DNA of 64,000 nt from an uncultured Candidatus Saccharibacteria bacterium (GTDB lineage: Bacteria; Patescibacteriota; Minisyncoccia; Phycocordibacterales; UBA12088), in NCBI GenBank assembly GCA_964567265.1, contig CAZMLK010000001.1:91311-155310 (forward strand). Direction: 5' to 3'. Shown here piece after piece: positions 24,421 to 59,363 of this stretch. The notes below the pieces were generated by a model. It was not told the origin of the DNA and ran no database searches. It saw nothing but the letters and a program-made list of their open reading frames with translations. How positions within the stretch are numbered: the first letter of the stretch is position 1; each line of letters opens with the position of its first letter. Made by a program: the position numbers and the translations under genes.

Positions 24421-24423
24421 GGA

Positions 24424-26191: not shown

Positions 26192-27985
<1,794 letters not shown>

Positions 27986-34043: not shown

Positions 34044-36155
34044 CTACTTCCCAGACGGCCACTCTTCAACCATGAGAATCGACTGCTTGCCCATGGACTG
34101 CCAGATTTCTTCCGTCACGAACGGCATGAAGGGGTGGAGGAGCTTAAGAGAGGTCTCGAGGATGGTGAGGAGCGTGTACTGTCGAGATGTACGGGCATCA
34201 GCGTCGGAACCGTTCAATAGCGCCTTGCTGTCCTCAAGGATGTCGTCGGCAAGCGTATGCCAGACATAGTGATAGAGCTTCTCGCCCGCGAGGTAAAAAC
34301 GGTATTCGTCGATTTCCTTGGTGACTTCGCGGGAGAGCGACCACAGGTTCGCGAGAAGTGTCGCATCTACGGGAGTCAGTACTGGATTCTTTGAGGTATC
34401 AAAATCTTCCGCGTTCGAGAGCACGAAGCGGGCAATGTTCCAGAGCTTGTTGGCGAACAGTTTGTAGGCCTTGATCTTCTCTTCATAGAGTGCGCTTGAG
34501 GTTCCCGGCGTATTGCCGATCGTGAGGCCCATACGGAGCGCATCGGTGCCGTATTTCTGCGAAAGCTCCAAGGGGGAAATGACATTGCCCTTCGACTTCG
34601 ACATCTTCTTGCCATCCTTCGCGGTCACGATGCCATGGAGATAGACGGTGGTGAATGGGAGCCGACCGGTGCGGTACTTGCCGAGCATGAGCATGCGCGA
34701 CACCCAGAAGAAGATGATCTCGCCCGCGGTCTCCATGACTTGCGTGGGGTAGAAGGTTTTGAAATCCTCGCTGTCGGGGAATCCGAGCGTCGCGAATGGC
34801 CACTGGCCGGACGAGAACCAGGTGTCAAAGGTGTCTGTTTCCCGCGTCCAGCCATCGCCTGGAGCGGTTTCGCCGACATGCACTTCGCCATTCTTGTACC
34901 AGGCGGGAATCGGGATGCCCCACACAATCTGTCGGGAGACATTCCAATCCTCGATATTGGTGAGCCAGTGGAGGGTGATCTTCTTGTAGTGTTCCGGGTA
35001 GAACACGATTTCATCTGCTTCGATTGCCTCGATAACGGGCGCCGCGAGGCTCTTCATGCTGACGAACCACTGCGGGAGGACACGTGGCTCGAGGACACGC
35101 TCGCACTTGTAGCATTTCTTGACCGCATGCTTGTACTCAAGATCAACCTTGACCATGAGGCCGGCCTTCTCGAGATCTTCCGCGACCTGTTTTCGTGCGT
35201 CCTCGACCTTGAGCCCGGCATACTTGCCGCACTTGTCGTTCAATTTGCCGAACTGGTCGATGACCTCGACGATCGGCAGATTGTGGCGCTTGGCGATCGC
35301 GAAGTCATTCGGATCGTGGGCGGGGGTGATCTTCACGACGCCGGTCCCGAATTCGGGATCGACGTAGTCGTCCGCGATCACTTTGAGCTTGATGGGGCCC
35401 AAGAGTCCTTCGAATTCGATCTCCTTGCCGATCCATTCCTTGTATCGCTCGTCATTCGGATTCACCGCGACCGCTGTGTCGCCGAACTTGGTCTCCGGGC
35501 GGACGGTCGCAAGAGTGAACGGCCCGTACTGCATATAGTAGAGAGGGTCGACACGTTCCTCGCTGATGGTCTCCAGTTCTGAAAGGGAGGTCTGATGCTT
35601 GGTGCACCAATTGATGCTTTTCTCGCTCCGATAGACGAGTCCGTCGGCGTAGAGTTGCTCGAAGGTGCCATAGACCGTCTTCACGACGTCCTGGTCGAGC
35701 GTGAATTTCTCACGACTCCAGTCGCAGGACGCCCCGAGTTCTCGCAATTGGCCTTCCATGAACTGCTTGTTATGGAGCGTGAAGTCGAGGATTTCTTTTC
35801 GGAGCGCTTCTGGATCCATACCGAAGCGCGAGCGGCCTTCCTTCTCGAGCTTCTTCTCGTACACCACCTGTGTCTCGAAGCCCGCGTGATCGGCACCGGG
35901 GAGCCACAATGTCTTGAAGCCCTGCATGCGCTTGTAGCGGATCAACAGGTCCTCGATGGTCACGAATACCGCGTGGCCGGCGTGGAGGGAGCCGTTCGCA
36001 TTCGGCGGCGGCATGATGATGGTGTAGGGCAGCGCCCGATCTCCTGGCAGATTGTCAGGATTGAAGTAGCCCGATTCGTCCCAGAGCTGATAGATCCGCT
36101 TCTCGGTTTCCTCGGGGTTGTAGGGCTTGAGAAATTTCTCGTCCATTGCAGCCAT
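34044..36155 (-). CDS. valS: valine--tRNA ligase (short form lacking the C-terminal coiled coil)
   Basis: HIGH region PPPNANGSLHAGHA. KMSKS motif KMSKSKGNVI. The editing-domain insertion is present. 703 aa is short for ValRS. Confidence 0.8.
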   Translation of the reverse strand: MAAMDEKFLKPYNPEETEKRIYQLWDESGYFNPDNLPGDRALPYTIIMPPPNANGSLHAGHAVFVTIEDLLIRYKRMQGFKTLWLPGADHAGFETQVVYEKKLEKEGRSRFGMDPEALRKEILDFTLHNKQFMEGQLRELGASCDWSREKFTLDQDVVKTVYGTFEQLYADGLVYRSEKSINWCTKHQTSLSELETISEERVDPLYYMQYGPFTLATVRPETKFGDTAVAVNPNDERYKEWIGKEIEFEGLLGPIKLKVIADDYVDPEFGTGVVKITPAHDPNDFAIAKRHNLPIVEVIDQFGKLNDKCGKYAGLKVEDARKQVAEDLEKAGLMVKVDLEYKHAVKKCYKCERVLEPRVLPQWFVSMKSLAAPVIEAIEADEIVFYPEHYKKITLHWLTNIEDWNVSRQIVWGIPIPAWYKNGEVHVGETAPGDGWTRETDTFDTWFSSGQWPFATLGFPDSEDFKTFYPTQVMETAGEIIFFWVSRMLMLGKYRTGRLPFTTVYLHGIVTAKDGKKMSKSKGNVISPLELSQKYGTDALRMGLTIGNTPGTSSALYEEKIKAYKLFANKLWNIARFVLSNAEDFDTSKNPVLTPVDATLLANLWSLSREVTKEIDEYRFYLAGEKLYHYVWHTLADDILEDSKALLNGSDADARTSRQYTLLTILETSLKLLHPFMPFVTEEIWQSMGKQSILMVEEWPSGK

Positions 36156-37054: not shown

Positions 37055-38098
37055 ATGTCAACTTCAAAGAAGGTCGCGATCCTCGGCGTACTTCCGAGCC
37101 TCGCACTCGGTCTCGCAGCACTTCCGGCGTTCGCATACACGCCGGCAGCAGATGTGACGACTGTCTCGGTCTCGAATGTGAACAAGGCAACCGTCACAAA
37201 CTCGGTCACCCTCACGTCGACGACGGGATACAACACCGCGAATGGCGGTAATGGCGCAAACGGGGGCAAGGGCGGAAGCTCAGGCTCGAATGCAGGTAAC
37301 GGCGGCAAGGGCGGTAACGGCGGTGATGCTTCAGGCACCGGAGACAATTTCGGTGGTACGGGCTCCATGGGTGGTAACGGCGGTTGGACCGGCGATGCTG
37401 GCATGGGCGGTAACGGTGGTATGGGCGGCCTCGGCGGCTTGATCATCACTGGCGATGCATCAGCTGCATCTGCTATCTCGAACGACGTTAACTACAATTC
37501 TACGAAGGTTACTCTCCAGGACTGCGGCTGCGATCGCTACAATGTCTGGACAAAGGACACGTGGCTCGCAAAGTCGAGCACGAACGGTGGCCATGGCCAT
37601 CACGGCAGCTCGAACAGCTCAGCGCTCGAGAAGTCTTCGAATGAATACAAGAAGACGGCAGTTCCTCAGATCGTCACGGTCGCTGTCGGTAACGACAACA
37701 CCGCAGAAGTCATCAACTCAGTTGGTGGCGCTGTAGACACTGGTATGAACACCGCGAATGGCGGCAATGCAGGCAAGGGTGGCAAGGGCGGAAGCTCAGG
37801 CTCAGCTGCAGGCAATGGCGGTCAGGGCGGCAACGGTGGTGATGCCACTGGCAGCACCTCGACCGGCCACGGACACAGCTGTTCTCACAGCTGCGGTACG
37901 ACGGCAGGCACCAACCTCGGCGGCGATGCAGGCATGGGTGGCGTTGGCGGTTCAACCGGCGATGCTGCAGCAGCAGGCAACGGCGGCGATGGCGCAATGG
38001 GCGGCACGGTCTCGACAGGCAAGGCAGATGTACTTTCTGCAATTGCAAACGTCGTCAACAAGAACGTGACTCGCATCGTTCGCGGCGCAGGTCTCTAG
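37055..38098 (+). CDS. secreted Gly/Asn-rich repeat protein (family member 1)
   Basis: Signal peptide. Two copies of the module N-[KT]-A-[TE]-V-x-N-S-V...T(G)-x-NTANGGN followed by GGNGGKGG-type tracts. Confidence 0.7.
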   Translation: MSTSKKVAILGVLPSLALGLAALPAFAYTPAADVTTVSVSNVNKATVTNSVTLTSTTGYNTANGGNGANGGKGGSSGSNAGNGGKGGNGGDASGTGDNFGGTGSMGGNGGWTGDAGMGGNGGMGGLGGLIITGDASAASAISNDVNYNSTKVTLQDCGCDRYNVWTKDTWLAKSSTNGGHGHHGSSNSSALEKSSNEYKKTAVPQIVTVAVGNDNTAEVINSVGGAVDTGMNTANGGNAGKGGKGGSSGSAAGNGGQGGNGGDATGSTSTGHGHSCSHSCGTTAGTNLGGDAGMGGVGGSTGDAAAAGNGGDGAMGGTVSTGKADVLSAIANVVNKNVTRIVRGAGL

Positions 38099-38183
38099 TT
38101 TCTTTCTGAATGGTGCGGAATCGCTTCTCGCGACTCCGCCCTTCGGATGCGGTCTTGAATGATTCGAGGCTGCATGAGAGGGA

Positions 38184-38804
38184 ATGGATAGAAACACCAC
38201 ATGGATTCGTACATTGAAAGCGGCCCCGATCGCGGTGCTGCTCTCGGGGGTGGTGGTGCCTGCAGCATTGCCGGCACTTGCAGACACCGCGACGGTCAAC
38301 AACTCGGTCGAGATCCATGCCAACAGCGGCGGGAATGCGGGCGCGTCGGTCACGAATGGCTCGGTTTCGCGGACTGTTGATGTCACCACGATCGTGAACG
38401 GCGAGGTCGTGACCGATATCCACGAGCGCGCGCTCGAAAACGGGACGACGACCGTCAAGGTGACCTATGCAGCAGGCGGCATCTCCGCAAATGGCGCGGA
38501 CGGGCAGGATGGCGCTGACGGACTCCCGGGATCAAGCGGAAGCGACGGATCGAATGGCCAGGCAGCTGTCGTCGTGCTCGCGGCCTCGAGCACGACACCG
38601 GCCGAAGCCGTTCAGAAATCAGTGCCGCATGTCCCGAAGTTGAAAGCGAAGGAGATGGAGCCGATCCCCGTCACCTTCACGGCATCCGTTTCCGAAGCGA
38701 ATGCCTCCGGGTTCAAGGAGACGTTCATCCCGAAGACCTTCCATCGCATCGAATCCTTCTTCTCATATATGTTCGCCTCGATTATCACGATTTTTATCCA
38801 CTAG
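38184..38804 (+). CDS. secreted Gly/Asp-rich protein (family member 2)
   Basis: Signal peptide. DTATVNNSVEIHANSGGNAGASV module. GADGQDGADGLPGSSGSDGSNG tract. Confidence 0.6.
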   Translation: MDRNTTWIRTLKAAPIAVLLSGVVVPAALPALADTATVNNSVEIHANSGGNAGASVTNGSVSRTVDVTTIVNGEVVTDIHERALENGTTTVKVTYAAGGISANGADGQDGADGLPGSSGSDGSNGQAAVVVLAASSTTPAEAVQKSVPHVPKLKAKEMEPIPVTFTASVSEANASGFKETFIPKTFHRIESFFSYMFASIITIFIH

Positions 38805-38813: not shown

Positions 38814-41800
38814 ATGACAGAATTCCTCGCACGCATCCTCACGGTTGCACTCATGGTCGGGACGGTCGTGTTCACGAACCCGATCCTTCCGATCTTTGCC
38901 GAAGAAGTGGCGACGCCGCCTGCTGAGACTCCCGCGCCGAGCGGCGAGTCGACGACCGTACCCGATGCGGCAAGCACCTCGGGCACGAGCGGAGGTACCG
39001 CGTCCGGTGACGCCGTGATCGTGACGGGAGATGCTGCGTCGGTCGGCGATACGACGACGAGCGCCAACACCAACGACACCAATGTCGGCGGCGGCACGAC
39101 GGGCGGAACCACGGGAGGGATTCCTGAGGGAGCGACGCCGGTCCCGAGCGAGACCACGACGACAACCACGAACGACAACACGGCGGCCGCGACGACCGAC
39201 TCGACCGTGACTGCAGATACAGGGAACAACACTGCTGATGCGTCAGCAGGCGTGGGTGGCGGAGGCGGTTCCGCAAACCAGGTGTCCACTCCAGGCACCG
39301 AGGGCGGCAGCGGCGGGGGAGGCGGAGCTACGGCTTCTTCGGGTGGCGGCAACGCGACGGTCGCGACGGGGAATGCGTATGCGGCGGCGAACGTCATCAA
39401 CGTCCTCAATACCAACATCTTCAATTCGAACGGATTCTTCCTCTTCCTCAACTCATTCTTCGGCGGCGGCACGCTCGATCTCTCGAAGCTCGATTTCCTT
39501 TCTGCTCCGGAGAGCGCGCCCACCGGCACGACCTACTGCTCGCTCGGCGGCTGCCCGGAAGGCGGCGCGAGCTACGTGATGATGAACAACAATACGGCGA
39601 CCATCGATAACGCGGTGGTGGTCCGCTCGAACACGGGCGGCAATGTCGCAGCGGGAGATGGAAATGCGACCGTCGCGACCGGCAACGCCTACGCAGCGGC
39701 AAACGTGGTCAATGTCGCGAATTCCAACTTCGTCGACTCAAACTACCTGCTCCTTTCATTCAACAATTTCGGGAACATGGATGGCGACATCGTCCTCCCC
39801 AACAGTGATTTCTTCGCGAAATACTTCCATGGCGGCGCGCTCTCGACCGGCGCATCGAACACAGTCACGAACACGAATACTGCTGAGGTCACGAACGCTG
39901 TCGGCGTGACTGCGGACACGGGAAACAACTCCGCGTCATCAAACGGGGGGAACGCCGTCATCGCTACGGGGAATTCAAGCGCGAACGGAGCCGTCACGAA
40001 CGTCATCAACACGAACGAATTCGGTGGCGACAAGGTCTTCATGCTCTTCCGCGTCTTCGGCAACTGGGCAGGGAACATCTATAATGCGCCGAAGGGTATC
40101 GAGTGGGCGCCGACCGCGACAGGCGTCGAGCTCTTTTCCACCGATGCGGATACCGCCGGCGGCAGCGCGAATCCGCTCCAGAACCTGAAATCGTTGAACA
40201 GCAACAGCGCGACCGTGAAGAACGATGTGCAGGTCTACGCGCTCACGGGCGACAACCGGGTCGATGCGGGTACCGGCAACGGGACCGTCGTCACCGGGGA
40301 TGCGTATGCGGCAGCGAACGTCACCAACGTCGTCAATACGAACGTCGTCGGTCGCAACTGGATCTTCGCGATCTTCAACATCTTCGGCGACTTCAATGGC
40401 AGCATCTCGTTCGGTCGTCCTGACCTTTGGCTCGGGGCAGTCGCAGACAGCAACGGGCATCCATATGGACCGGGACAGGATGTCACCTATACATTCACGA
40501 TCACCAACCACGGCGACGCGGATGCATCGAACGTGCACCTGAAGGCCGCGTTCAACCACAATCTCCTCCAGTTCATGGACGGCGATGAGTGGGATCTGGG
40601 AGCGCTCGCGAAGAACCAGACGGTTGAAGTCGTGAAGCACGCGAAGGTGACCGGAAGCCTCGGGGTCGGGGACACGCCGATCCCTGTCGATGCGTCGGTC
40701 TCGCTCCACGAATCCGATGCGGACATGACCGATAACTACGAGGAGGTCACCATCGTCGGCCAGTACTATCCGACCGGCATGATCGGCGCGGTCCGTCCTG
40801 GTCCTGAGACTCCGGATCCGATCTGGAAACTCAAGAAGACAGTCTCGACGCCGACGACGGTCGCGAGCTCGACGGTCGACTATGCGATCCAGATCCTGAA
40901 CGATGGCGGTCCGGCATACAACGCAGTCCTCTTCGATTCGGTCACGGATTCCGATGGGGATGTCGTCTTCGAGCAGTCGTGGGATCTGGGAATGGTGCAG
41001 GCAAACGAGGAAATCAACGTCACCTACTCGGTGTTCTTCCATGACAATATCCCTCCCGGCGTGTACACCAACCATGCGTTCATCCGCGCGCTCGGCCGCT
41101 CTCCGGCACCCCAGTACGCGGTCTCGAAGGACTCTGGAGTCGTCTCTGCGGCCGTCACGATCACCGCTCCGGTCGCGGAAGGCGCGGACCAGCCCGAGGT
41201 AGTGCTTGCTCCTGAGGAACCGCGCTCGTGCGACCAGTATATCTACGAGTCGATCCGATCGGGCGCACGGAACAACCCCGAGGAGGTCCGGAAGCTCCAG
41301 AACTTTCTCAACAAATTCGCCGGATTCACGGGCATCGGCGAGACCGGCATCTACGACAAGGCCACGGAGGCAGCCGTGAAGAAGTTCCAGGAGGAGAATA
41401 CGGATGAGGTTTTGAGCCCTTGGGGACTCGACGGACCGACCGGATACGTGTACATTACTACACGGAAGAAAATAAATGACATCTATTGTCAAGGGCAGGC
41501 GGAATTCCCCCTCTCCGATGGGGAAGTGACTGAAATTAACGGTTTTAAGGGCTATCTCATGTCCCTCCGGTCGCTCCGGATCAAGGGCTCAGAGAGCGTC
41601 CTCCGCACGCCTCCGGCTTCGGTGACCAATCCGGTGCCCGTTCCTGAAGAATTCGAGGGCTCGCCATCTCCGACCACGAGCAGCGAGACGGCGCCGTCGG
41701 TCGTCGAATCCGCGACGACCTCGCTCATCGGGACCACAAGCGCCATCTTCGGCAAGGTCGCCTCGACCGCCCTCGACTCGATCGCGGGAGCAGCCGGAAG

Positions 41801-41903
41801 CCTCGACAATCTGCGGCAATGGCTGGCCTCGATGGCAGGATCGCTCCGCAACATCCTCTCCACGCTCATGGTGAGCCACGAGAAAACGCTCGGCAGCCTC
41901 TAG
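38814..41903 (+). CDS. large secreted surface protein with 4x GN(A/G)TVATGNAYAAANVxNVxNTN repeats, DUF11-like domains and a C-terminal peptidoglycan-binding-like domain
   Basis: 1029 aa. Signal anchor. Four near-identical 25-aa repeats. VTYTFTITNHGDADASNV and VDYAIQILNDGGPAYN (DUF11-like). C-terminal ...VRKLQNFLNKFAGFTGIGETGIYDKATEAAVKKFQEEN (PG_binding_1-like). Confidence 0.8.
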   Translation: MTEFLARILTVALMVGTVVFTNPILPIFAEEVATPPAETPAPSGESTTVPDAASTSGTSGGTASGDAVIVTGDAASVGDTTTSANTNDTNVGGGTTGGTTGGIPEGATPVPSETTTTTTNDNTAAATTDSTVTADTGNNTADASAGVGGGGGSANQVSTPGTEGGSGGGGGATASSGGGNATVATGNAYAAANVINVLNTNIFNSNGFFLFLNSFFGGGTLDLSKLDFLSAPESAPTGTTYCSLGGCPEGGASYVMMNNNTATIDNAVVVRSNTGGNVAAGDGNATVATGNAYAAANVVNVANSNFVDSNYLLLSFNNFGNMDGDIVLPNSDFFAKYFHGGALSTGASNTVTNTNTAEVTNAVGVTADTGNNSASSNGGNAVIATGNSSANGAVTNVINTNEFGGDKVFMLFRVFGNWAGNIYNAPKGIEWAPTATGVELFSTDADTAGGSANPLQNLKSLNSNSATVKNDVQVYALTGDNRVDAGTGNGTVVTGDAYAAANVTNVVNTNVVGRNWIFAIFNIFGDFNGSISFGRPDLWLGAVADSNGHPYGPGQDVTYTFTITNHGDADASNVHLKAAFNHNLLQFMDGDEWDLGALAKNQTVEVVKHAKVTGSLGVGDTPIPVDASVSLHESDADMTDNYEEVTIVGQYYPTGMIGAVRPGPETPDPIWKLKKTVSTPTTVASSTVDYAIQILNDGGPAYNAVLFDSVTDSDGDVVFEQSWDLGMVQANEEINVTYSVFFHDNIPPGVYTNHAFIRALGRSPAPQYAVSKDSGVVSAAVTITAPVAEGADQPEVVLAPEEPRSCDQYIYESIRSGARNNPEEVRKLQNFLNKFAGFTGIGETGIYDKATEAAVKKFQEENTDEVLSPWGLDGPTGYVYITTRKKINDIYCQGQAEFPLSDGEVTEINGFKGYLMSLRSLRIKGSESVLRTPPASVTNPVPVPEEFEGSPSPTTSSETAPSVVESATTSLIGTTSAIFGKVASTALDSIAGAAGSLDNLRQWLASMAGSLRNILSTLMVSHEKTLGSL

Positions 41904-41990: not shown

Positions 41991-44159
41991 GTGAATGAGG
42001 ACGCTTTCAAGAACATGGTTTTTTACGACAAGTCACAAAAAAGAACGCAGTATTTCCACGCATCCCTGATCGGATTCGGCTGCTTCGTGTTCATCTCGGT
42101 CGCGTTCGCGCTCGCAGGCCTCTCGTTCCAGAAAGTCGGTGAGTACCGCACGGCAAAGGATGTCGCGTACAAACAGACCAATGACAAGGTCTTGGCGCTC
42201 ACGTTCGACGACGGACCGGATCCGGTCTTCACGCCGGAAATCCTCGCGATCCTGAAAGAAGAGAAGGTGCCGGGCACCTTCTTCGTGATCGGCGAGCACG
42301 TCATGGAGCATCCGAGCATCATCCGCGACATCAACGAGGCAGGGTTCGAGATCGGCAACCACACATACACCCACTCAGAGGCAGTGCATAATTCGCCGGC
42401 ACGCCTCCAGATCGAGCTCACGGCGACGGCGAAGGCGGTGGGGCAGATCACGGGCACGATGCCGCTCATGTATCGCCCGCCGTTCCTCCAGGACATCGGA
42501 CTCACCATGAACGGCGGACCGGTGCGCGAAGAGCAGCTTGAGGTCGCGCGCCAGCTCGGCTACGTCGTCGTCGGCGCCGACATCGAATCGCGCGACTGGG
42601 ATGCGGGCTCGGCCGAGCAGGTCGAGCAGATGGTGCGCGACAACCTGAAGGAAGGGCGGCACGTCATCCTCTTCCACGACGGCGGCGGTCCGGACCGCAC
42701 CAACACCATCAAGGCGCTCAAGAAGCTCATCCCTGAACTCAAGGCGGAAGGCTACACGTTCGTGCCCGCGTCCTATTTCTTCGGACTGAGCCAGAAGGAG
42801 GTAATGCCGCCGATCTCGTCGGTCACATCAATCGGTGACGGCGTCCTCTTTACCTACCTCCTCTTGATGGCGAAGCTCTCGGGAGCCATCGGCATCATCA
42901 CGCTCGCTGTCCTCGTGCTCACGTTCTTCCGCATCTCGACGATGCTCATCATGCGCTACGTGTTCGTCGCGGAGCAGAAGACCTACGGCAAGAAGCACGG
43001 CTATCGCGGAGCGGTCGCGGTCATCATTCCCGCATACAATGAAGAGGCGAACATCGATGCGACGATCACCAGCGTCATCGAGAACAGCCATCCGCCGGAC
43101 CAGGTCATCGTCGTCGACGACGGCTCGAAGGACAAGACGGCGGAGCGCGTGCGCGCGCTCATCGAGCACTATGGTGATCGGCTGCAGCTCATCCAGGTCA
43201 CGAACGGCGGCAAGGCGCGTGCGCTCAATATCGGCATCGCGTACGCACGCCCGAACATCGTCATCTGCATCGACGGCGACACCATTTTCCATCATGACGC
43301 GATCGCGAAGCTGATCCGCCATTTCGATGATCCGAAGGTCGGCGTTGTCGCTGGCAAGGTGGTGCCGGTCCGCGAGGAGACGCTCCTCGACAAGTTCCAG
43401 ATCGTCGAGTACATGATCGGGCAGAACATCGAGAAGGAAGTGCTCGCGGTCATGAACGCGGTCGGCGTGGTGCCGGGCGCGGTCGGCGCATGGCGGAAGA
43501 GCGTGATCCGCGCGCGCGATGGGTATCCGGAAGATACGATTGTCGAGGACCAGGACCTCACCCTCTCGTTCCTCGTGCAGGGGTACAAGATCGTGTACGA
43601 AGGGGAAGCGATCGCGTACACCGAGGCGCCGAACAACATCAAGGATTTCATGAAGCAGCGCTCGCGCTGGGTGTTCGGAACCTTCCAGTGCTTCTGGAAA
43701 TACCGGAAGCATGTGGGAAGCATGGAGCGTCCCAGCCTCGGCTGGATCGTGCTCCCGAACATCCTGCTTTTCAATACCATCCTCCCGCTCCTCACGCCGT
43801 TCATGGATATCTTCGCGCTGGTCACCATCCTCGAGGGCGGCGGCTTCAAAGGAGCTGTGATCGCGTTCTTCGTGTTCACGCTCATCGATATGACCTATGC
43901 CGCCCTCGCGATCGCGAGCGATCAGAATCCGCCGTACCGCCTCATCTGGACGGTAATCATCCAGCGCATCTTCTACCGCTACGCCATGTTCTATGTGGTC
44001 TCAGAAAGCATGATCAAGGCGATAAAGGGCAACATCGCGCCGAAGTCGCGCTGGAAGCCGCCGACCCGCCAGGGTCATGCGCAGGCAGCATTCGATGGCG
44101 TCAACCGGCTCGGCGGCCGGCCCGTCAAGCAGCCGATCACCGCGAGCATGTCGTCATAA
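41991..44159 (+). CDS. fused polysaccharide deacetylase (NodB/CE4) + processive family-2 glycosyltransferase (PgaB/PgaC- or IcaB/IcaA-like)
   Basis: N-terminal LTFDDGPDP...PGTFFVIGEH...NHTYTH (CE4 motifs). C-terminal VIIPAYNEE, VVDDGSKD, ICIDGDT, QRSRWVFGTFQ (QxxRW) with flanking TM helices. Confidence 0.85.
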   Translation: MNEDAFKNMVFYDKSQKRTQYFHASLIGFGCFVFISVAFALAGLSFQKVGEYRTAKDVAYKQTNDKVLALTFDDGPDPVFTPEILAILKEEKVPGTFFVIGEHVMEHPSIIRDINEAGFEIGNHTYTHSEAVHNSPARLQIELTATAKAVGQITGTMPLMYRPPFLQDIGLTMNGGPVREEQLEVARQLGYVVVGADIESRDWDAGSAEQVEQMVRDNLKEGRHVILFHDGGGPDRTNTIKALKKLIPELKAEGYTFVPASYFFGLSQKEVMPPISSVTSIGDGVLFTYLLLMAKLSGAIGIITLAVLVLTFFRISTMLIMRYVFVAEQKTYGKKHGYRGAVAVIIPAYNEEANIDATITSVIENSHPPDQVIVVDDGSKDKTAERVRALIEHYGDRLQLIQVTNGGKARALNIGIAYARPNIVICIDGDTIFHHDAIAKLIRHFDDPKVGVVAGKVVPVREETLLDKFQIVEYMIGQNIEKEVLAVMNAVGVVPGAVGAWRKSVIRARDGYPEDTIVEDQDLTLSFLVQGYKIVYEGEAIAYTEAPNNIKDFMKQRSRWVFGTFQCFWKYRKHVGSMERPSLGWIVLPNILLFNTILPLLTPFMDIFALVTILEGGGFKGAVIAFFVFTLIDMTYAALAIASDQNPPYRLIWTVIIQRIFYRYAMFYVVSESMIKAIKGNIAPKSRWKPPTRQGHAQAAFDGVNRLGGRPVKQPITASMSS

Positions 44160-44162
44160 ACA

Positions 44163-44207
44163 AAAAACCCACCGATTTGCACTAGTGCAAATCGGTGGGT
44201 TTTTTTG
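44163..44207. terminator. bidirectional intrinsic terminator
   Basis: aaaaaacccaccgatttgcac-tagt-gcaaatcggtgggttttttt between convergent genes. Confidence 0.7.
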
Positions 44208-44221: not shown

Positions 44222-45022
44222 TTATCGTCTCGTCGTCACCACCTTGGTCCAGGGACCCTTCGGCACCGCCGTGTCTTCGACGAAGCGCCACTCGACGTCT
44301 GAGATGTCGCCGACGCCGAGGCAGTCGCGCATCGCGGGCGAGAGGTCGATGCCTGCGCCCGCATCGAACGTGTTCTTCGATTTCATGTTGGTCCCGAATA
44401 CGTATGCGACATCGTCCTCCTCGAACGGACCGACATCTTGCCACTGCCCGTAGCAGGTCTTGTTTTTTCGCGTGACTTCGATCCAGTGGTTCTTGAGGAT
44501 CGATTTGCCGGCGCTGAGACTGAGCGCCTTCCCGGAATACCAATGCACGAGTGCAGCATTGTCCTTGCGGTCGCCTTCTTCGTCGAGATCGTTGTAGGGA
44601 AGCGCCACGTAGAACGGATTCTCCTTCGCGACGAACCGGCAGGGGTTGTATCCCGAGCGGCAGTCTGGGTCGTCGATGCCGCCATAGTGTTCCATCCACT
44701 GCTCGTCCCAGGCGCTCATGGCATTCGGAATGAAGTCGTTCGAGGCGTCCGCCTCTTCGCCTACCCAGAACACGGTCGCAATCGCGCTCTTGTAGCCGGT
44801 CTTGGTTGTCGTGGTAGTTGCGGTCGAGGTTGCAGTGGTCGTTCCTGCCAGCAATCCCTCAGGAGTGGTCGAGCTCGTTTCAGAAGATACAGAGGTGCTG
44901 GCGAATTCGAGGAAATTGTCATCGCTCGTGATTGGAGCAGTTTTGATGCCGTAGGCGAGGTATGCTGCCGCAGCGCCCACCGCCAACACAAAAAAGCCCA
45001 ATATCCCGAGCCATATTTTCAT
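44222..45022 (-). CDS. membrane-anchored secreted protein (hypothetical, Thr-rich linker + Cys-containing globular domain)
   Basis: Start at MKIWLGILGFFVLAVGAAAAYLAY. TTATSTATTTTTKTG linker. The C-terminal domain has conserved Cys (CRSGYNPC, CYGQWQDVGP, CLGVGD). Confidence 0.55.
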   Translation of the reverse strand: MKIWLGILGFFVLAVGAAAAYLAYGIKTAPITSDDNFLEFASTSVSSETSSTTPEGLLAGTTTATSTATTTTTKTGYKSAIATVFWVGEEADASNDFIPNAMSAWDEQWMEHYGGIDDPDCRSGYNPCRFVAKENPFYVALPYNDLDEEGDRKDNAALVHWYSGKALSLSAGKSILKNHWIEVTRKNKTCYGQWQDVGPFEEDDVAYVFGTNMKSKNTFDAGAGIDLSPAMRDCLGVGDISDVEWRFVEDTAVPKGPWTKVVTTRR

Positions 45023-45127: not shown

Positions 45128-47845
45128 GTGGATACCACTTATTCATATCTATCCAGACTTTTCATGCACACATTCATGGCCCGTGCGCTGACCTCGGGAT
45201 TACTCGCATTGGTTGCGTTCTTCCCTACAGGAGCCCTGCTTGCCGAAACGGCCCCGGTGGCCGAGCCGCAAGCTACGGAGGCGGTCGCACCAGCTGCCGC
45301 CCCGCTCGATGGCCGGGGAAGCTCGATTCTTGTCGTGAAGGCGGCAAGCAACCCCTTCAGCGCATACTACGCCGAGATACTGCGCGCGGAGGGCTTCAAC
45401 AGCTTCACGTCGCTGGATCTTTCTCAAGTCACCGCGTCAGTCCTTTCGAGCTTCGATGTGGTCATCGTCGGCGACCTCTCGCTCACAGCCGCGCAGGTGA
45501 CGCTTTTCACGAATTACGTGAATGCGGGCGGCAACCTGATCGCGATGAGTCCGGACAAGAAGCTCTCCCCCTTGCTCGGCCTCACCGATGCATCCTCGAC
45601 CAGATCGAATGCGTATCTCCTCGTGAACACCGCGAATGATCCGGGAAAGGGAATCGTCGGTCAGACCATCCAGTATCACGGAAGCGCGGACCGCTATACC
45701 TTGAATGGCGCAACTGCGGTCGCTTCGATCTACTCGAGCGCGGCGACCAGCACTACGAATCCTGCGGTCTCCATCCGCTCGGTCGGCGGGAGCGGCGGAC
45801 AGGCAGCGGCATTCACGTTCGATCTCGCAAAATCCATCGTCTATTCGAGGCAGGGAAATCCGGCATGGTCCGGACTCGAGCGCGATGGCTCGGCACCCAT
45901 TCGTCCGAACGATCTTTTCTTCCCGGATTGGGTGAACTTGGACAAGGCGGTGATCCCGCAGGCGGATGAGCTCCAACGGCTCCTCGGCAACATGATCATA
46001 TATATGAATCAGGACAAGAAGCCGCTTCCGCGCTTCTGGTATTTCCCGAGCATGAAAAAAGCGGTCATCCTTATGAGCGGGGACGATCATGGGACCGTAG
46101 CGGGGACCAAGACCACATTCAATAATCTGATTGCGGCAAGCGCGCCTGGATGCGTCGTTGCGAATTGGGAATGCTACCGCGCGACATCGTGGCTCTATAC
46201 GAGCTCGCCGCTCACCAATGCCGAAGCGCTCGCGTATCACAACCAAGGATTCGAGATCGGCGTCCACGTGAGCACGAACTGCGCCGACTGGACTCCTGCG
46301 ACGCTTCCTGGATTCTTTACCAATGACCTCGCTGCGTTTGCTGCGAAGTACACCAGTCTTCCCGTGCAGCAGACCAGCCGCACGCACTGCATCGCCTGGA
46401 GCGATTATGCGACGCAGCCGAAGGTGGAACTCCAGAAAGGGATCCGGCTCGATGAGAACTATTACTACTGGCCGGCATCATGGGTCCAGAATCGCCCTGG
46501 CTTCATGACGGGTTCCGGCATCCCGATGCGGTTCGCCGATACGAATGGCGCACTCATCGATGTGTACCAGCAGCCGTCACATCTGGTGAATGAGAACGAC
46601 GTCAGCTATCCGGCCGGCATCAACAGCATGCTGGACAGGGCGCTCGGCGCTGAAGGGTACTACGGCGTCTTCGGCACGCACTACGACCACAGCGATGCGT
46701 TCGACAGCCAGCTCCTCGCGTCCGCGCAGACGCGGGGAGTCTCGCTGATTTCTGCCAAGCAGCTCCTCACGTGGTTGGATGGCCGTAATAATTCGACGTT
46801 CGGCACGACCACCTGGAACGGCAGCACGCTGACCTTCCCGGTAGTCGTCAGATCAGGCGCAGTGAACCTCTACACGATGATCCCGTTCAAGTCAGGCACG
46901 CTCCAGGTGACCGGCGTCAAGATCGGCGGATCGTCGGTCCCTTTCACCACCGACACGATCAAGGGCCGCGTGTACGCGCTCTTCAAGGTCACGAGCGGCA
47001 CGGTCGTCGCGACGTATGCGGCCGATACCGCGGCGCCAACGGTCGTCAGCGTCTCGCCCGCGAATGGCGCTCAGAATGTGAGCAGCAGTACGAATATCCT
47101 GATTACCTTCTCGGAAGCGATGACGGCCTCCTCGATCGGCACCTCGACCATCGAGCTCCGTGATCCCGCGAATGCGCTCGTCGCGCGTGCAGTGACTTAC
47201 AACACGGCCACCTTCACCGCGACGCTGAATCCGAACGCGAACTTACGCGCCTCGACGACCTACACCGTGAAGGTGAAGGGCGGCGCGACCGACCCGCGCG
47301 CGAAGGATGCATCGGGGAATGCGCTTGCCGTGAATTTCACGTCGACCTTCAAGATCTCCGCGACCGGCCAGGCGCCGACGGTGAGCCTCTGGAGCAGCAC
47401 CACGACTCCGGCTGTCGCCTCCGTGAATGATCCGAACGCGATCGAGCTCGGTGTGCGATTCCGTTCATCGGTCGCGGGTACGATTACCGGCATCAGGTTC
47501 TACAAGGGCGCTGCGAATACCGGCACGCATACAGGCACGCTCTGGAATGCGTCCGGGACATCGCTCGCGACAGGAACCTTTTCGGCAGAAAGCGCGACCG
47601 GCTGGCAGACGCTCATCTTCGCGAGTCCGGTCGCCATCACCGCGAACACGGACTACGTAGCCTCGTACTTCACCCCGACGGGGAATTACGCGGCCGACAG
47701 TAATTATTTTGCCGCAGCGCGCGTGAACGGCGTCTTGTCCGCGACGGCGGTCGTGAACGGGCTCTTCTCATACGGCCCGCACGCATTCCCGACTCAGAAT
47801 TTCCAGGCGACCAACTACTGGGTGGATGTGATCTTCCAGCCGTAG
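45128..47845 (+). CDS. large secreted surface protein with bacterial Ig-like domain and DUF4082
   Basis: Signal peptide. Ig-like segment TAAPTVVSVSPANGAQNVSSSTNILITFSEAM...TYTVKVKGGATD. DUF4082-like ELGVRFRSSVAGTITGIRFYKGAANTGTHTGTLW...TDYVASYF. Confidence 0.8.
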   Translation: MDTTYSYLSRLFMHTFMARALTSGLLALVAFFPTGALLAETAPVAEPQATEAVAPAAAPLDGRGSSILVVKAASNPFSAYYAEILRAEGFNSFTSLDLSQVTASVLSSFDVVIVGDLSLTAAQVTLFTNYVNAGGNLIAMSPDKKLSPLLGLTDASSTRSNAYLLVNTANDPGKGIVGQTIQYHGSADRYTLNGATAVASIYSSAATSTTNPAVSIRSVGGSGGQAAAFTFDLAKSIVYSRQGNPAWSGLERDGSAPIRPNDLFFPDWVNLDKAVIPQADELQRLLGNMIIYMNQDKKPLPRFWYFPSMKKAVILMSGDDHGTVAGTKTTFNNLIAASAPGCVVANWECYRATSWLYTSSPLTNAEALAYHNQGFEIGVHVSTNCADWTPATLPGFFTNDLAAFAAKYTSLPVQQTSRTHCIAWSDYATQPKVELQKGIRLDENYYYWPASWVQNRPGFMTGSGIPMRFADTNGALIDVYQQPSHLVNENDVSYPAGINSMLDRALGAEGYYGVFGTHYDHSDAFDSQLLASAQTRGVSLISAKQLLTWLDGRNNSTFGTTTWNGSTLTFPVVVRSGAVNLYTMIPFKSGTLQVTGVKIGGSSVPFTTDTIKGRVYALFKVTSGTVVATYAADTAAPTVVSVSPANGAQNVSSSTNILITFSEAMTASSIGTSTIELRDPANALVARAVTYNTATFTATLNPNANLRASTTYTVKVKGGATDPRAKDASGNALAVNFTSTFKISATGQAPTVSLWSSTTTPAVASVNDPNAIELGVRFRSSVAGTITGIRFYKGAANTGTHTGTLWNASGTSLATGTFSAESATGWQTLIFASPVAITANTDYVASYFTPTGNYAADSNYFAAARVNGVLSATAVVNGLFSYGPHAFPTQNFQATNYWVDVIFQP

Positions 47846-52431: not shown

Positions 52432-53970
52432 ATGAAAAGAATACTTCTCGGTATCGGGATGATCGTCTTCGTCAGCGCGATTGCTGCCGGAGCGACGGGC
52501 GCGTTTTTCTCTGATACGGAGACTTCGACCGGCAACACCTTCACTGCCGGAGCGATTGATCTCAAGGTGGACTCGACGCAGCATTACAACAACGCGGTCT
52601 GTACCAATGGCGTCTGGGTACTCGCGGCTGGCCAAACCATCGCCGTGGACCAGTATCCGGTCCTTGGAAGCGCATGTACTGGTTCATGGACCCTGACTGA
52701 TCTCGGGCCGACGAACCAGTTTTTTAATTTCGGCGACGTGAAGCCGGGCGATCGCGGCGAGAACACTGTTTCTCTCCACATCGATAACAACAATGCGTGG
52801 GCATGTCTTGATCTCCGCACCACAGGCAACAACGAGAATACGCTCGTCGAGCCGGAGTCGGATGCAGGTGATGTGACGCTTGATCCGTCAGGCGGTGAGC
52901 TCGCGCAGAACATCAAGGTGTTCTCATGGCTCGACAATGCATCTACGAGTGGTGCTATCCCAGGTGACAACATCTGGCAGGCAGGCGAGCCGATGTTGTT
53001 CTCGCCGGTCGCGCTTTCAGGTCTTGGCTCGACCACGACGCTTCCGCTTGCTGACTCAGTCACCAACGGCGGCGCGACGATGGCGCCGGGCGTGACGAGC
53101 TACATCGGCCTCTTCTGGTGCGCAGGCAACCTGACCGCGGTCGCCGGTGTCATCACTTGCGACGGCTCAGCGATGGGCAACCAGTCGCAGACGGACTCCG
53201 CAACGACCACGGTCTCATTCCGCGTCGTGCAGTCCCGGAACAATCCGACCTTCCAGTGCAGCAATCAGGTGGTCGTTGAGGAGCCAATCACGGTTACCGT
53301 GACGGCAAATGATCTCGATGCAGGACCTGCGGCTTCCGCCGCAACGAATGGTCTCGGCAAGTGGTTCATGTACAACGACACGACCGACGTGATCGATAAC
53401 AACCTCGGTACCTTCGTTGCAGGTCCGGCTGGAGTACCGAATGGCGCAAATAGCATCCAGTTCGTACTCGGTGCAAGCCCGCTTGATCGGAAGAATATCG
53501 CCACCTTCAAGTTCCAGGGAACAGTACTCTCGACCATCACTCAGATGGGCTTCGGGGTGTACTCGCACGGAGGAACAGGCGGAGCGGGTCCGAATGAGTC
53601 ACCATTCCTCGCATTCAATGTCGACTTCTTCAACACGGGCGTCTTCCAGAATCGCCTCGTCTATGTCCCGACCATCAATACCGGGGCAGTGCCGCAGGAC
53701 ACTTGGAATTCATATGACGTGATTGCAGGAGGCGCAGCGAAGTGGGTCTACTCAGGTGCAAACTGGCCAGCTCCAAACGCGCAGCCAGGCACTACGCCGA
53801 AGACATGGGCGCAGATCCTTGCTGATTATCCGAGCGCCAAGATTCTTGGACTCGGCGGATGGCTCGGAATCCGTGTCGGCGAGCCAGGACCGACCAACTA
53901 CATCGGCAATGTCGACTTCTTCAAGATCGCGACAGGCGGACCGGTGACGACGTACGACTTCGGCAACTAG
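52432..53970 (+). CDS. TasA/camelysin-like (peptidase M73 family) secreted protein with SipW-cognate signal peptide, paralog 1
   Basis: MKRILLGIGMIVFVSAIAAGATGAFFSDTETSTGNTFTAGAIDLKVD matches the SipW-cognate class leader (AFFSD-E-S-N-F-AG-LDL). Downstream FNFGDVKPGD matches the TasA NLSNLKPGD box. Confidence 0.8.
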   Translation: MKRILLGIGMIVFVSAIAAGATGAFFSDTETSTGNTFTAGAIDLKVDSTQHYNNAVCTNGVWVLAAGQTIAVDQYPVLGSACTGSWTLTDLGPTNQFFNFGDVKPGDRGENTVSLHIDNNNAWACLDLRTTGNNENTLVEPESDAGDVTLDPSGGELAQNIKVFSWLDNASTSGAIPGDNIWQAGEPMLFSPVALSGLGSTTTLPLADSVTNGGATMAPGVTSYIGLFWCAGNLTAVAGVITCDGSAMGNQSQTDSATTTVSFRVVQSRNNPTFQCSNQVVVEEPITVTVTANDLDAGPAASAATNGLGKWFMYNDTTDVIDNNLGTFVAGPAGVPNGANSIQFVLGASPLDRKNIATFKFQGTVLSTITQMGFGVYSHGGTGGAGPNESPFLAFNVDFFNTGVFQNRLVYVPTINTGAVPQDTWNSYDVIAGGAAKWVYSGANWPAPNAQPGTTPKTWAQILADYPSAKILGLGGWLGIRVGEPGPTNYIGNVDFFKIATGGPVTTYDFGN

Positions 53971-59361: not shown

Positions 59362-59363
59362 AT

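What the first reader, a model, noticed from the sequence alone, without database searches (positions are those of the whole stretch)
41991..44159. Single-polypeptide fusion of CE4 polysaccharide deacetylase and processive GT2 synthase, embedded among surface-protein genes
The N-terminal NodB-homology deacetylase motifs (TFDDGP, HTYTH) and the C-terminal PgaC/IcaA-type synthase motifs (DDGSKD, DGD, QRSRW) lie in one 722-aa ORF. In PNAG systems these are normally separate proteins, with a periplasmic PgaB/IcaB and a membrane PgaC/IcaA. The fusion also places the deacetylase N-terminal to the synthase. A secreted Cys-rich protein lies on one side and the Gly/Asn-rich surface proteins and a Big/DUF4082 protein on the other. 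Together these suggest a compact exopolysaccharide plus surface-protein module.
Basis: partly seen in the sequence, partly recalled or inferred. Interest (0 to 1): 0.5.

Follow-up and report, generated by a model that had tools for sequence, protein, structure and literature searches.

The report
Fused polysaccharide synthase–deacetylase, known type
One membrane protein of an ultra-small Patescibacteria bacterium joins an enzyme that makes an N-acetylglucosamine polymer to one that removes its acetyl groups; the fusion is real but is the already described, widespread Streptomyces MatB design, so it is ordinary apart from a conserved, uncatalogued neighbour gene.

Summary
The ORF is real. It runs 41991-44159 on the + strand, and the true start is probably ATG 42015 (714 aa). 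It has an N-terminal membrane anchor, an intact CE4/NodB-type deacetylase, one long transmembrane helix, a processive GT2 synthase with D, DxD, ED and QxxRW motifs, and C-terminal membrane helices. It is not a frameshift: the identical protein occurs in independent assemblies, and all 120 best homologues listed carry both domains.

The fusion is not unusual. Streptomyces MatB has the same order, NodB-like CE4 then PgaC-like GT2, and makes PNAG. NCBI has a standard name for this architecture. I found it in at least seven phyla. The GT2 domains of all fused proteins sampled form one clade (100/100 bootstraps). That clade is about equally distant from PgaC/IcaA and NodC, so the linkage (beta-1,6 or beta-1,4) is unresolved. 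The CE4 domain resembles NodB/PgdA, not PgaB/IcaB.

The "surface-protein module" is only partly supported. The "secreted Cys-rich" neighbour lies on the opposite strand. It is a membrane-anchored protein with an RlpA/expansin-like double-psi beta-barrel fold and no Pfam family. It sits convergently downstream of the synthase in 6 of 8 related loci.

Verdict: a new member of a known kind, of low interest. The conserved partner is the only lead worth following.

The parts
42015..44159 (+). Gene for the bifunctional CE4 deacetylase / GT2 synthase, 714 aa.
   Evidence: ORF. Start supported by the gene calls and by conserved M1/F3/R10 in the 46-sequence alignment.
42066..42122 (+). TM1, an N-terminal signal-anchor helix (residues 18-36). 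It is preceded by K6, K9 and R10.
   Evidence: Kyte-Doolittle peak of 2.42. AF2 helix 9-37 with pLDDT above 90.
42189..42803 (+). CE4 / NodB-homology deacetylase domain (residues 59-263), predicted extracytoplasmic. All five CE4 motifs are present: TFDDGP (D65, D66), HTYTH (H116, H120), RPPF (R154, P156), RDW (D194, W195) and LFHD (H221).
   Evidence: Pfam PF01522, E 2e-31. D65, D66, H116, H120, R154, P156, D194 and H221 are invariant in 46 homologues. Foldseek to B. cereus BC1960 PgdA gives TM 0.84-0.85. BLASTP gives 111 bits to NodB and no hit to PgaB or IcaB.
42831..42986 (+). Single long helix (residues 273-324). It holds TM2 (about 276-305) and a basic cytoplasmic extension (R306, R314, K322, K325, K326).
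   Evidence: AF2 secondary structure. Hydropathy peak 294-312 and charge counts.
43014..43700 (+). GT2 catalytic domain (residues 334-562), cytoplasmic. Motifs: VVDDGSKD (D369), DGD (D420, D422), VEDQD (E511, D512) and QRSRW (Q548-W552) on an interface helix.
   Evidence: Pfam PF00535, PF13641 and PF13632. Invariant columns. Motif alignment with PgaC, IcaA, NodC and BcsA. Foldseek top hits are hyaluronan synthases at E 2e-18, plus BcsA and Chs1.
43731..44027 (+). C-terminal membrane helices (573-606, 611-634) and an amphipathic helix (641-671): the putative polymer-conducting part.
   Evidence: AF2 helices. Hydropathy peaks 575-633. The NCBIfam PgaC_IcaA model aligns through this region, positions 23-406 of 407.
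44049..44075 (+). Conserved C-terminal motif RWKPPTRQG. It aligns with PgaC RWVSPDRG, IcaA TWSSPDRG and the BcsA gating-loop region KFNVTAKGG.
   Evidence: Alignment. W680 is invariant and G687 nearly invariant.
44162..44205 (.). Bidirectional intrinsic terminator: a 20-bp perfect stem flanked by an A-run and a T-run, between the two convergent genes.
   Evidence: RNA fold -30.8 kcal/mol, z -8.0, 0 of 200 shuffles as stable. The pattern scan missed it.
44222..45022 (-). Conserved convergent partner gene, 266 aa from ATG 45022 (gene callers also use 45055). It has an N-terminal TM helix, a Ser/Thr-rich linker and a roughly 190-aa double-psi beta-barrel domain with a GIDLSPA motif.
38814..41903 (+). 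Upstream same-strand gene for a 1029-aa surface protein (DUF11/CLIPPER plus PG_binding_1). It may be co-transcribed with the synthase across a 111-bp gap with no predicted terminator. It is a weakly supported member of the neighbourhood.
   Evidence: Pfam. Conserved upstream of the synthase only in L003, at 51% identity over residues 494-1016. Terminator scan.

Best explanation
The gene encodes a MatB-type bifunctional exopolysaccharide synthase-deacetylase of a Patescibacteria (Parcubacteria/Paceibacteria) cell.

Shown by sequence and model: a short basic N-terminus, an anchor helix TM1, a CE4 domain, a single transmembrane helix TM2, a GT2 domain, then two more transmembrane helices, an amphipathic helix and a basic tail.

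Inferred topology: the GT2 domain must face the cytoplasm, where UDP-sugars are found. Because only one helix separates it from the CE4 domain, the CE4 domain sits on the outer face of the membrane.

Inferred mechanism: the GT2 domain polymerises GlcNAc from UDP-GlcNAc and pushes the chain through a channel formed by its own membrane helices, as PgaC, IcaA, hyaluronan, cellulose and chitin synthases do. The tethered, catalytically intact CE4 domain removes part of the N-acetyl groups as the chain emerges. The product would be a cationic, adhesive, partly deacetylated poly-GlcNAc.

The envelope presumably has no outer membrane, so no PgaA/PgaB-type export step is needed.

Linkage is unresolved. 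I lean to beta-1,6 (PNAG) because the one characterised family member, MatB, makes PNAG. I put this at about 0.55, against 0.35 for a beta-1,4 chitin/chitosan-like chain.

The convergent neighbour, a membrane-anchored RlpA/expansin-like double-psi beta-barrel protein, is proposed to bind or trim this glycan or the wall it crosses. This is inference from synteny and fold only.
For: Domains and motifs.

Topology: hydropathy and charge bias (5 K/R just after TM2 against 1 before it); a single continuous helix 273-324 in a model with pLDDT 89 and pTM 0.84.

Processive synthase fold: Foldseek to Chlorella virus and Xenopus hyaluronan synthases (E 2e-18 to 1e-15), BcsA and Chs1.

GlcNAc-polymer family: the NCBIfam best hit is PgaC_IcaA at 176 bits over the whole model, with NodC at 101 and CelA at 49. 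BLASTP of the GT2 region gives PgaC 126, IcaA 119, NodC 104 and BcsA 38 bits.

Same clade as fused proteins from Streptomyces, Actinoplanes, Bacillaceae, Sphingomonas, Acidobacteriota, Verrucomicrobiota and Bacteroidota: 100/100 bootstraps.

Characterised precedent: MatB has the same domain order, an extracellular CE4 and an intracellular GT2, and its product is PNAG (PMC4391728; PMC5972031).

Host taxon: the nearest named relatives of the window's LepA (one at 70%, the others 67-69% identical) are Paceibacterota, Taylorbacteria, Zambryskibacteria and Parcubacteria.

Partner.
Against: No biochemical data exist for any member of the Patescibacteria-type clade.

The protein scores far below the PgaC_IcaA equivalog cut-off (176 against 422 bits).

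Its position relative to PgaC/IcaA or NodC is unresolved (57 against 42 of 100 bootstraps).

The CE4 domain resembles enzymes that act on beta-1,4 substrates (NodB, PgdA, PdaB) and shows no BLASTP similarity to PgaB or IcaB.

Relatives carry or sit beside GH18 domains.

Topology rests on hydropathy and an AF2 model, not on a dedicated predictor or an experiment.

The partner is absent from 2 of 8 related loci. Only 3 of 12 well-flanked partner loci in metagenomes have a full fusion within 6 kb.
Confidence: 0.75

Rival explanations
1. The architecture and mechanism are the same, but the product is a beta-1,4 chitin-like chain. The CE4 domain converts it to a chitosan-like polymer, so the system would be a fused NodC/NodB or chitin synthase/chitin deacetylase analogue rather than a PNAG system.
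For: The best CE4 matches are NodB, PgdA and PdaB, all acting on beta-1,4 GlcNAc, with no BLASTP hit to PgaB or IcaB. In the tree NodC is sister to the fusion clade in 42 of 100 bootstraps. Bacillaceae homologues have a GH18 domain in the same polypeptide. L006 has a GH18 gene and two more CE4 genes within 6 kb. The partner's structural relatives (expansins, GH45, cerato-platanins, RlpA, a viral chitosanase) act on or bind beta-1,4 glycans.
Against: MatB, the only characterised fused member, makes a polymer identified as beta-1,6 PNAG although its CE4 domain has the same NodB/PgdA-like character (PMC5972031). Scores to PgaC/IcaA are somewhat higher than to NodC and extend through the membrane part.
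Confidence: 0.35
2. The two domains do unrelated jobs. The external CE4 domain de-N-acetylates peptidoglycan, like PgdA, for lysozyme resistance, and the GT2 domain makes a separate polymer that is not deacetylated.
For: The closest solved CE4 structures include peptidoglycan GlcNAc deacetylases: BC1960 at TM 0.85, and SpPgdA. Related synthases carry a PG_binding_1 domain between CE4 and TM2. The upstream 1029-aa protein also has PG_binding_1.
Against: All sampled fusions form one clade found in at least seven phyla, which argues that the two activities are coupled on one substrate. The CE4 domain is tethered next to the channel exit by a single helix. The MatB precedent also argues against it.
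Confidence: 0.1
3. The enzyme iteratively glycosylates a peptide or protein acceptor, as IgtG does with a lasso peptide. IgtG is annotated with the same NCBI architecture name.
For: [quoted passage not shown] Surface-protein genes lie next to the window gene.
Against: No RiPP precursor, cyclase or protease genes lie near the gene. The neighbouring surface proteins are not conserved with it. All processive-synthase features are conserved: QxxRW, the membrane helices and the gating-loop-like motif.
Confidence: 0.04
4. The fusion is an artefact: a sequencing frameshift or misassembly has joined two genes.
For: None found.
Against: The identical protein occurs in independent assemblies, including a strain with different downstream DNA. 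All 120 best homologues carry both domains. 595 confirmed genomic relatives were found, and the best 80 span both domains. The model is confident across the junction.
Confidence: 0.01

Closest known systems
MatB (SCO2962 / SLI_3306) of Streptomyces coelicolor and S. lividans, the bifunctional PNAG synthase/deacetylase of the matAB locus
   Same: The architecture and order are the same: N-terminal NodB-like CE4, a transmembrane helix, then a C-terminal PgaC-like GT2, with CE4 outside and GT2 inside. The homology pattern also matches, with the GT2 closest to PgaC and the CE4 closest to PgdA/NodB. A Streptomyces fused homologue (L077) is 33-36% identical over both domains and falls in the same GT2 clade.
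   Different: The window protein belongs to a separate, well-supported Patescibacteria-type subclade (100/100). I saw no matA-like or icaC-like neighbours by Pfam annotation, though no MatA sequence was available to compare. The conserved neighbour is instead a DPBB-fold protein that tblastn did not detect in the Streptomyces loci fetched. I could not confirm that L077 is the matB orthologue itself.
PgaCD + PgaB (E. coli) and IcaAD + IcaB (staphylococci), the PNAG systems with separate synthase and deacetylase
   Same: The GT2 has the same motifs and C-terminal membrane part. It scores 126 and 119 bits against PgaC and IcaA, and IcaA aligns almost end to end. A CE4 deacetylase acts outside the membrane.
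   Different: Here there is one polypeptide. The TIGR03937 cut-off is not reached (176 against 422 bits). The CE4 domain is not PgaB/IcaB-like. No PgaA, PgaD, IcaD or IcaC gene was seen, and there is no GH153 or GH20 hydrolase.
NodC + NodB (rhizobial chitooligosaccharide synthase and deacetylase)
   Same: Both pair a GlcNAc-polymerising GT2 with a NodB-type CE4. The CE4 gives 111 bits to NodB and the GT2 gives 104 bits to NodC.
   Different: In rhizobia these are separate genes and NodB is cytoplasmic. NodC makes short oligomers. The TIGR04242 and TIGR04243 cut-offs are not reached.
GT-PgaB deacetylase fusion clades noted by Bundalovic-Torma et al. 2020 (PMC7112194)
   Same: These are deacetylase domains fused to GT domains in loci that lack pgaA and pgaD, with the deacetylase inferred to act at the outer face of the inner membrane.
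   Different: They were described for Gram-negative genomes only, and Patescibacteria were not discussed. The paper words the event as an N-terminal fusion of a GT domain to the deacetylase. In the window protein the deacetylase is N-terminal.
RlpA / expansin / kiwellin / GH45 double-psi beta-barrel proteins (for the partner gene)
   Different: No Pfam or NCBIfam model matches any of 42 members. There is no PDB sequence match. hhalign against E. coli RlpA is not significant. The partner has extra elements around the barrel, and about 190 residues are conserved at 55-66% identity.

Membership tests
[quoted passage not shown] | [quoted passage not shown] | tested here: met
   PF01522 at residues 61-192 and PF00535/PF13641/PF13632 at 342-609 of one ORF. 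The definition comes from PMC4391728.
[quoted passage not shown] | A transmembrane helix between the domains, so that CE4 is extracellular and GT2 intracellular | tested here: met
   A single helix 273-324 in the AF2 model. One hydropathy peak, with a positive-inside bias of 5 K/R against 1. This is prediction only; no dedicated topology predictor was available.
[quoted passage not shown] | An intact CE4 catalytic set: Asp-Asp, His-x-x-x-His, Arg, Asp-Trp and His | tested here: met
   D65, D66, H116, H120, R154, D194 and H221 are invariant and W195 nearly invariant (at least 90%) in 46 homologues.
[quoted passage not shown] | Processive GT2 motifs D, DxD, ED and QxxRW, followed by membrane helices | tested here: met
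   D369, D420/D422, E511/D512 and Q548-W552 are invariant. Helices 573-671.
[quoted passage not shown] | The GT2 domain groups with other fused proteins rather than with stand-alone synthases | tested here: met
   In an NJ tree of 340 columns and 20 sequences, all fusions are monophyletic in 100 of 100 bootstraps. Only four stand-alone references were included.
[quoted passage not shown] | The product is partly deacetylated PNAG (dispersin B-sensitive, recognised by anti-PNAG antibody) | not testable with these tools
   This needs biochemistry. Sequence does not resolve beta-1,6 from beta-1,4.
[quoted passage not shown] | A co-transcribed MatA membrane protein upstream and an IcaC-like acyltransferase downstream, as in the Streptomyces mat locus | not tested
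   No MatA sequence was available. By Pfam, the window neighbours are a DUF11/PG_binding_1 protein and a DPBB protein, with no acyltransferase.
PgaC/IcaA PNAG synthase equivalog (NCBIfam TIGR03937) | Score at or above the curated cut-off of 422.3 bits | tested here: not met
   176.2 bits, although the alignment covers model positions 23-406 of 407.
PgaC/IcaA PNAG synthase equivalog (NCBIfam TIGR03937) | Works with a separate PgaB/IcaB-type deacetylase and a small PgaD/IcaD subunit | tested here: not met
   The deacetylase is fused, and BLASTP at E < 1e-3 finds no similarity to E. coli PgaB or S. arlettae IcaB. PgaD and IcaD were not searched for specifically.
NodC chitooligosaccharide synthase (TIGR04242) and NodB (TIGR04243) | Scores at or above the cut-offs of 550 and 240 bits | tested here: not met
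   101.4 and 121.4 bits.
   QRSRW and the C-terminal helices are present. PpgS, AglJ and ArnC-type models score only 35-37 bits, and only over the N-terminal Rossmann half.
RlpA-like double-psi beta-barrel proteins, Pfam DPBB_1 (for the partner gene at 44222-45022) | DPBB fold | tested here: met
RlpA-like double-psi beta-barrel proteins, Pfam DPBB_1 (for the partner gene at 44222-45022) | Match to the family's sequence model | tested here: not met
   None of 42 members matches any DPBB family at E <= 1. hhalign to E. coli RlpA gives probability 0.2.

The most novel reading that the evidence does not exclude
In Patescibacteria and a few neighbouring lineages, the CE4-GT2 synthase and its convergent, uncatalogued DPBB-fold partner form a minimal two-gene system. 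The synthase would make a partly deacetylated GlcNAc polymer, possibly a beta-1,4 chitosan-like one rather than PNAG. The partner would be a new family of glycan-cleaving or glycan-loosening proteins dedicated to releasing, trimming or threading that polymer through the wall, filling the role that BcsZ, the PgaB hydrolase domain, PelA or PslG play in other synthase-dependent systems. In these ultra-small, host-dependent cells the polymer would serve for attachment.
Probability: 0.2. Interest if true: 0.55.

Novelty: new member of a known kind. Interest (0 to 1): 0.25.

Why it matters
The fusion itself matters little. It is a correctly spotted member of a large family that is already named and partly characterised. 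It does show that Parcubacteria-type cells with very small genomes keep a self-contained machine for a cationic GlcNAc polymer, a plausible adhesin for organisms thought to live attached to other cells. The more useful outcome is the partner. It belongs to a family of more than 3,000 'hypothetical' proteins with no Pfam model and a confident RlpA/expansin-like fold. It is repeatedly placed tail-to-tail with the synthase. If it acts on the polymer, it would add a new accessory enzyme class to synthase-dependent exopolysaccharide systems. It might also help settle what polymer this whole fused family makes.

Tried and rejected
- **Frameshift or misassembly:** rejected.
- **GTG 41991 as the start:** probably wrong. 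ATG 42015 fits the conserved N-terminus.
- **Genome-collection scan:** It returned only non-Patescibacteria relatives and not the source genome, so it gave phyletic breadth but no close synteny. I used exact-protein look-ups for that instead.
- **Partner against Pfam, NCBIfam and PDB sequences:** no match. hhalign to E. coli RlpA was not significant.
- **Convergent 351-aa gene downstream of the synthase in L173:** unrelated to the partner.
- **First bootstrap run:** it gave meaningless zero support for deep nodes because of rooting. I recomputed support as bipartitions.
- **Foldseek against afdb50:** not available.
- **Sigma-70 and terminator pattern scan:** it missed the long hairpin after the gene, which I then confirmed by folding.
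- **Literature search for this fusion in Patescibacteria:** nothing specific found.
- **Streptomyces locus L077:** its flanks (a sigma factor and a PBP-like gene) do not look like the published mat locus, so I do not call it the matB orthologue.
- **Gly/Asn-rich proteins (37055-38804) and the Big_5/DUF4082 protein (45128-47845) as part of a conserved module:** rejected, since none appears beside the synthase in the related loci examined.
Full report
**Observation.** The window has one uninterrupted ORF from 41991 (GTG) to 44159 on the + strand. Pfam finds a CE4 polysaccharide deacetylase domain at residues 61-192 (PF01522, E 2e-31). It finds GT2 families PF00535, PF13641 and PF13632 over residues 342-609 (E 8e-33 to 5e-22). 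Gene callers on three other records start the protein at ATG 42015, giving 714 aa. A 46-sequence alignment has M1, F3 and R10 conserved in at least 90% of rows. I therefore take 42015 as the start and number residues from it below.

**Not an artefact.** The identical 714-aa protein is on record from a 621,860-bp NCBI contig and from two independent sequencing runs. One of these contigs, L002, departs from the window right after the stop codon. It carries an extra 297-aa gene before the shared terminator, so it is a different strain with the same fused gene. All 120 best homologues listed have both PF01522 and PF00535. The AlphaFold2 model built on 46 homologues has mean pLDDT 89 and pTM 0.84, and it is confident through the junction.

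**Anatomy.**
- Hydropathy gives strong peaks at residues 18-36 and 294-312 and a cluster at 575-633.
- The model shows helix 9-37, an alpha/beta domain at 59-263, and one continuous helix at 273-324. An alpha/beta domain follows at 334-540, then an interface helix at 542-562 carrying QRSRW, helices at 573-606, 611-634 and 641-671, and a basic tail.
- Five K/R residues follow the second hydrophobic stretch and only one precedes it. A GT2 that uses UDP-sugars must be cytoplasmic, and a single span separates it from the CE4 domain. The CE4 domain is therefore predicted to lie outside the membrane. This is an inference from prediction, not a measurement.
- The five CE4 motifs are intact. D65, D66, H116, H120, R154, D194 and H221 are invariant in the alignment and W195 is nearly invariant.
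- The GT2 signature residues D369, D420/D422, E511/D512 and Q548-R549-x-R551-W552 are also invariant.
- A conserved C-terminal motif, RWKPPTRQG, aligns with PgaC RWVSPDRG, IcaA TWSSPDRG and the BcsA segment KFNVTAKGG. From my own knowledge, that BcsA segment is the gating loop.

**What kind of GT2.**
- Foldseek against the PDB puts hyaluronan synthases first (E 2e-18 to 1e-15). An archaeal membrane mannosyltransferase, BcsA and yeast Chs1 follow. The N-terminal domain matches B. cereus BC1960 PgdA at TM 0.84-0.85.
- The best NCBIfam hit is PgaC_IcaA, at 176 bits across model positions 23-406 of 407, but the cut-off is 422. NodC scores 101 and CelA 49. For the CE4 part, PdaB, NodB and PgdA lead.
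- BLASTP of the GT2 region gives 206-468 bits to fused homologues. It gives 126 to E. coli PgaC, 119 to IcaA (nearly end to end), 104 to NodC and 38 to BcsA.
- The CE4 region gives 111 bits to NodB and no hit to PgaB or IcaB.
- I built a neighbour-joining tree of 340 trimmed columns. All fused proteins are monophyletic in 100 of 100 bootstraps, and so is the Patescibacteria-type subclade containing the window. The sister group is PgaC+IcaA in 57 replicates and NodC in 42.
The enzyme belongs with GlcNAc-polymer synthases. The linkage cannot be read from sequence.

**How common the fusion is.**
- The homologue search scored 7356 proteins at E <= 1e-10. [quoted passage not shown]
- Variants exist with PG_binding_1 inserted after CE4 (about 800 aa). 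Bacillaceae have variants with a GH18 domain in front (about 1100 aa).
- In plasmid records, 36 hold matches covering at least 80% of the protein. These come from Bacillus, sphingomonads, Deinococcus, Prevotella, Sulfitobacter and Streptomyces.
- A scan of species-representative genomes confirmed 595 relatives before hitting its limit. Nearly all of the best 80 cover both domains. They come from Bacillota, Alphaproteobacteria, Acidobacteriota, Gemmatimonadota, Verrucomicrobiota, Bacteroidota, Actinomycetota and others.

**What is already published.**
- Van Dissel et al. [quoted passage not shown]
- The 2018 paper places the GT2 inside and the CE4 outside, joined by a transmembrane helix. It notes that the CE4 resembles PgdA and NodB, and it shows that MatAB produces PNAG (PMC5972031).
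- Bundalovic-Torma et al. 2020 list GT-deacetylase fusions in PNAG loci lacking pgaA and pgaD (PMC7112194).
- A protein with the same NCBI architecture name, IgtG, glycosylates a lasso peptide (PMC11912497). This is a minor rival for function.

**Host.** The window's LepA is 67-70% identical to proteins named Candidatus Paceibacterota, Taylorbacteria, Zambryskibacteria and Parcubacteria. The surrounding genes are mostly without Pfam families, apart from housekeeping genes such as MurJ, LepA, LeuRS, HSP20 and PrsW. The organism is a Patescibacteria member of the Parcubacteria/Paceibacteria type. I found no paper in the held library that discusses this fusion in Patescibacteria.

**Neighbourhood.**
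- Upstream on the same strand lie two Gly/Asn-rich secreted proteins (37055-38098 and 38184-38804). A 1029-aa protein with DUF11 and PG_binding_1 follows (38814-41903). It is separated from the synthase by 111 bp with no predicted terminator.
- Only the 1029-aa protein recurs, and only in the closest relative, L003 (51% identity).
- A 20-bp perfect hairpin flanked by A and T runs follows the synthase (-30.8 kcal/mol, z -8).
- The next gene is on the opposite strand (44222-45022), convergent with the synthase.
- The Big_5/DUF4082 protein (45128-47845) does not recur next to any homologue.

**The partner.**
- The convergent gene encodes a 266-aa protein. It has an N-terminal transmembrane helix, a Ser/Thr-rich linker and a conserved domain of about 190 residues.
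- Copies 50-66% identical lie in the same place and orientation in L003, L004/L005, L006, L171 and L172. This holds although the synthases there are only 41-58% identical and the other flanking genes differ.
- It is absent from L173 and L174, so it is present in 6 of the 8 loci of this subclade that I examined.
- It is absent from all 80 loci from other phyla.
- In L004 and L172 the domain is fused to an SLH wall-binding domain instead of a membrane anchor.
- The family has 3371 homologues at E <= 0.001. None has a Pfam domain, and the few that are named are called hypothetical.
- Starting from the partner, 80 metagenome loci were fetched. Of these, 17 have a full or contig-truncated fusion within 6 kb and 5 have a GT2-only hit. 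Among the 12 loci with at least 3 kb on both sides, 3 have a full fusion, 3 a GT2-only hit and 6 nothing. The link is recurrent and specific but not obligatory.
- No Pfam, NCBIfam or PDB sequence match exists.
- hhalign to E. coli RlpA is not significant, although it lines up the 'GPFEEDD ... GIDLSPA' region with RlpA's 'GPYGNDRV ISLS'.
- Proteins of this fold bind, loosen or cut beta-linked glycans. I propose that the partner handles the synthase's product or the wall it crosses. This is inference only.

**Mechanism and rivals.**
- Best supported, at confidence about 0.75 for architecture, topology and a GlcNAc polymer: cytoplasmic polymerisation, translocation through the enzyme's own helices, and partial de-N-acetylation by the tethered external CE4 domain. 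The product would be a cationic adhesive polymer, and no outer-membrane export components are needed.
- Linkage: I lean to beta-1,6, following MatB. The beta-1,4 chitosan-like alternative has real support from the NodB/PgdA-like CE4, the GH18 associations, the partner's fold relatives and the unresolved tree.
- Less likely: the CE4 domain acts on peptidoglycan independently of the GT2 product, or the enzyme glycosylates a peptide as IgtG does.

**Verdict.** This is a new, uncharacterised Patescibacteria member of a known, named and partly characterised family. Interest is low. The conserved DPBB partner family is the one item that goes beyond what is catalogued.

Noticed in passing
window 44222-45022 (-); also L003 3780-4538, L006 10222-11004, L171 8103-9050, L172 8625-9833, L004 10738-11937: A family of more than 3,000 'hypothetical' proteins with no Pfam, NCBIfam or PDB sequence match and a confident RlpA/expansin-like double-psi beta-barrel model. 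It sits tail-to-tail with the CE4-GT2 synthase in 6 of 8 related loci. In two lineages it is fused to an SLH domain instead of a membrane anchor.
   Followed up: yes
L002 2776-3669 (corresponds to an insertion at window ~44160): Another strain with the identical synthase has an extra AT-rich gene inserted between the synthase stop codon and the shared terminator hairpin. It encodes a 297-aa multi-pass membrane protein of unknown function, with no Pfam hit.
   Followed up: partly
homologues P0004, P0012 and others; window 38814-41903: A PG_binding_1 domain is inserted between CE4 and TM2 in many related synthases of about 800 aa. In the window the same domain type sits instead in the separate 1029-aa protein encoded just upstream. 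This suggests that wall anchoring is associated with the system in different ways.
   Followed up: partly
homologues P0086, P0103, P0109, P0112, P0114 (Metabacillus, Oceanobacillus, Aquibacillus, Virgibacillus); L006 11285-15791: Bacillaceae have versions of about 1100 aa with GH18, CE4 and GT2 in one polypeptide. One Patescibacteria-type locus has a GH18 gene and two further CE4 genes within 6 kb of the synthase. This hints that the family's polymer may be chitin-like in some lineages.
   Followed up: partly
window 37055-38098 and 38184-38804 (+): Two secreted proteins with long Gly/Asn/Ser-rich repeats (GGNGANGGKGG...). They have no Pfam family and no counterpart next to the synthase in any related locus.
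   Followed up: partly
window 52432-60815 (+): A run of five same-strand genes. Three have N-termini that weakly match the Peptidase_M73/camelysin signal region, and one of these also has a SpaA_2 domain. A fourth gene has a Lamin-tail domain. This may be a surface-filament or pilus-like cluster.
   Followed up: no
window 34044-36155 (-): The leucyl-tRNA synthetase is only 703 aa, and its match to the editing-domain model PF13603 covers just 49 residues. This suggests a reduced editing domain.
   Followed up: no
window 1-14000 versus 14000-28000: G+C rises from 0.50-0.54 to about 0.60, and the GC skew becomes more negative across 14-28 kb. That stretch holds an MFS transporter, an M28 peptidase/spermidine-synthase-like fusion, a TPR protein, MurJ and LepA.
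   Followed up: no
window 45128-47845 (+): A 905-aa protein with C-terminal Big_5 and DUF4082 domains and an N-terminal region of about 600 aa with no family match (only a sub-threshold ThuA hit). It is transcribed divergently from the partner gene and is not conserved in related loci.
   Followed up: partly
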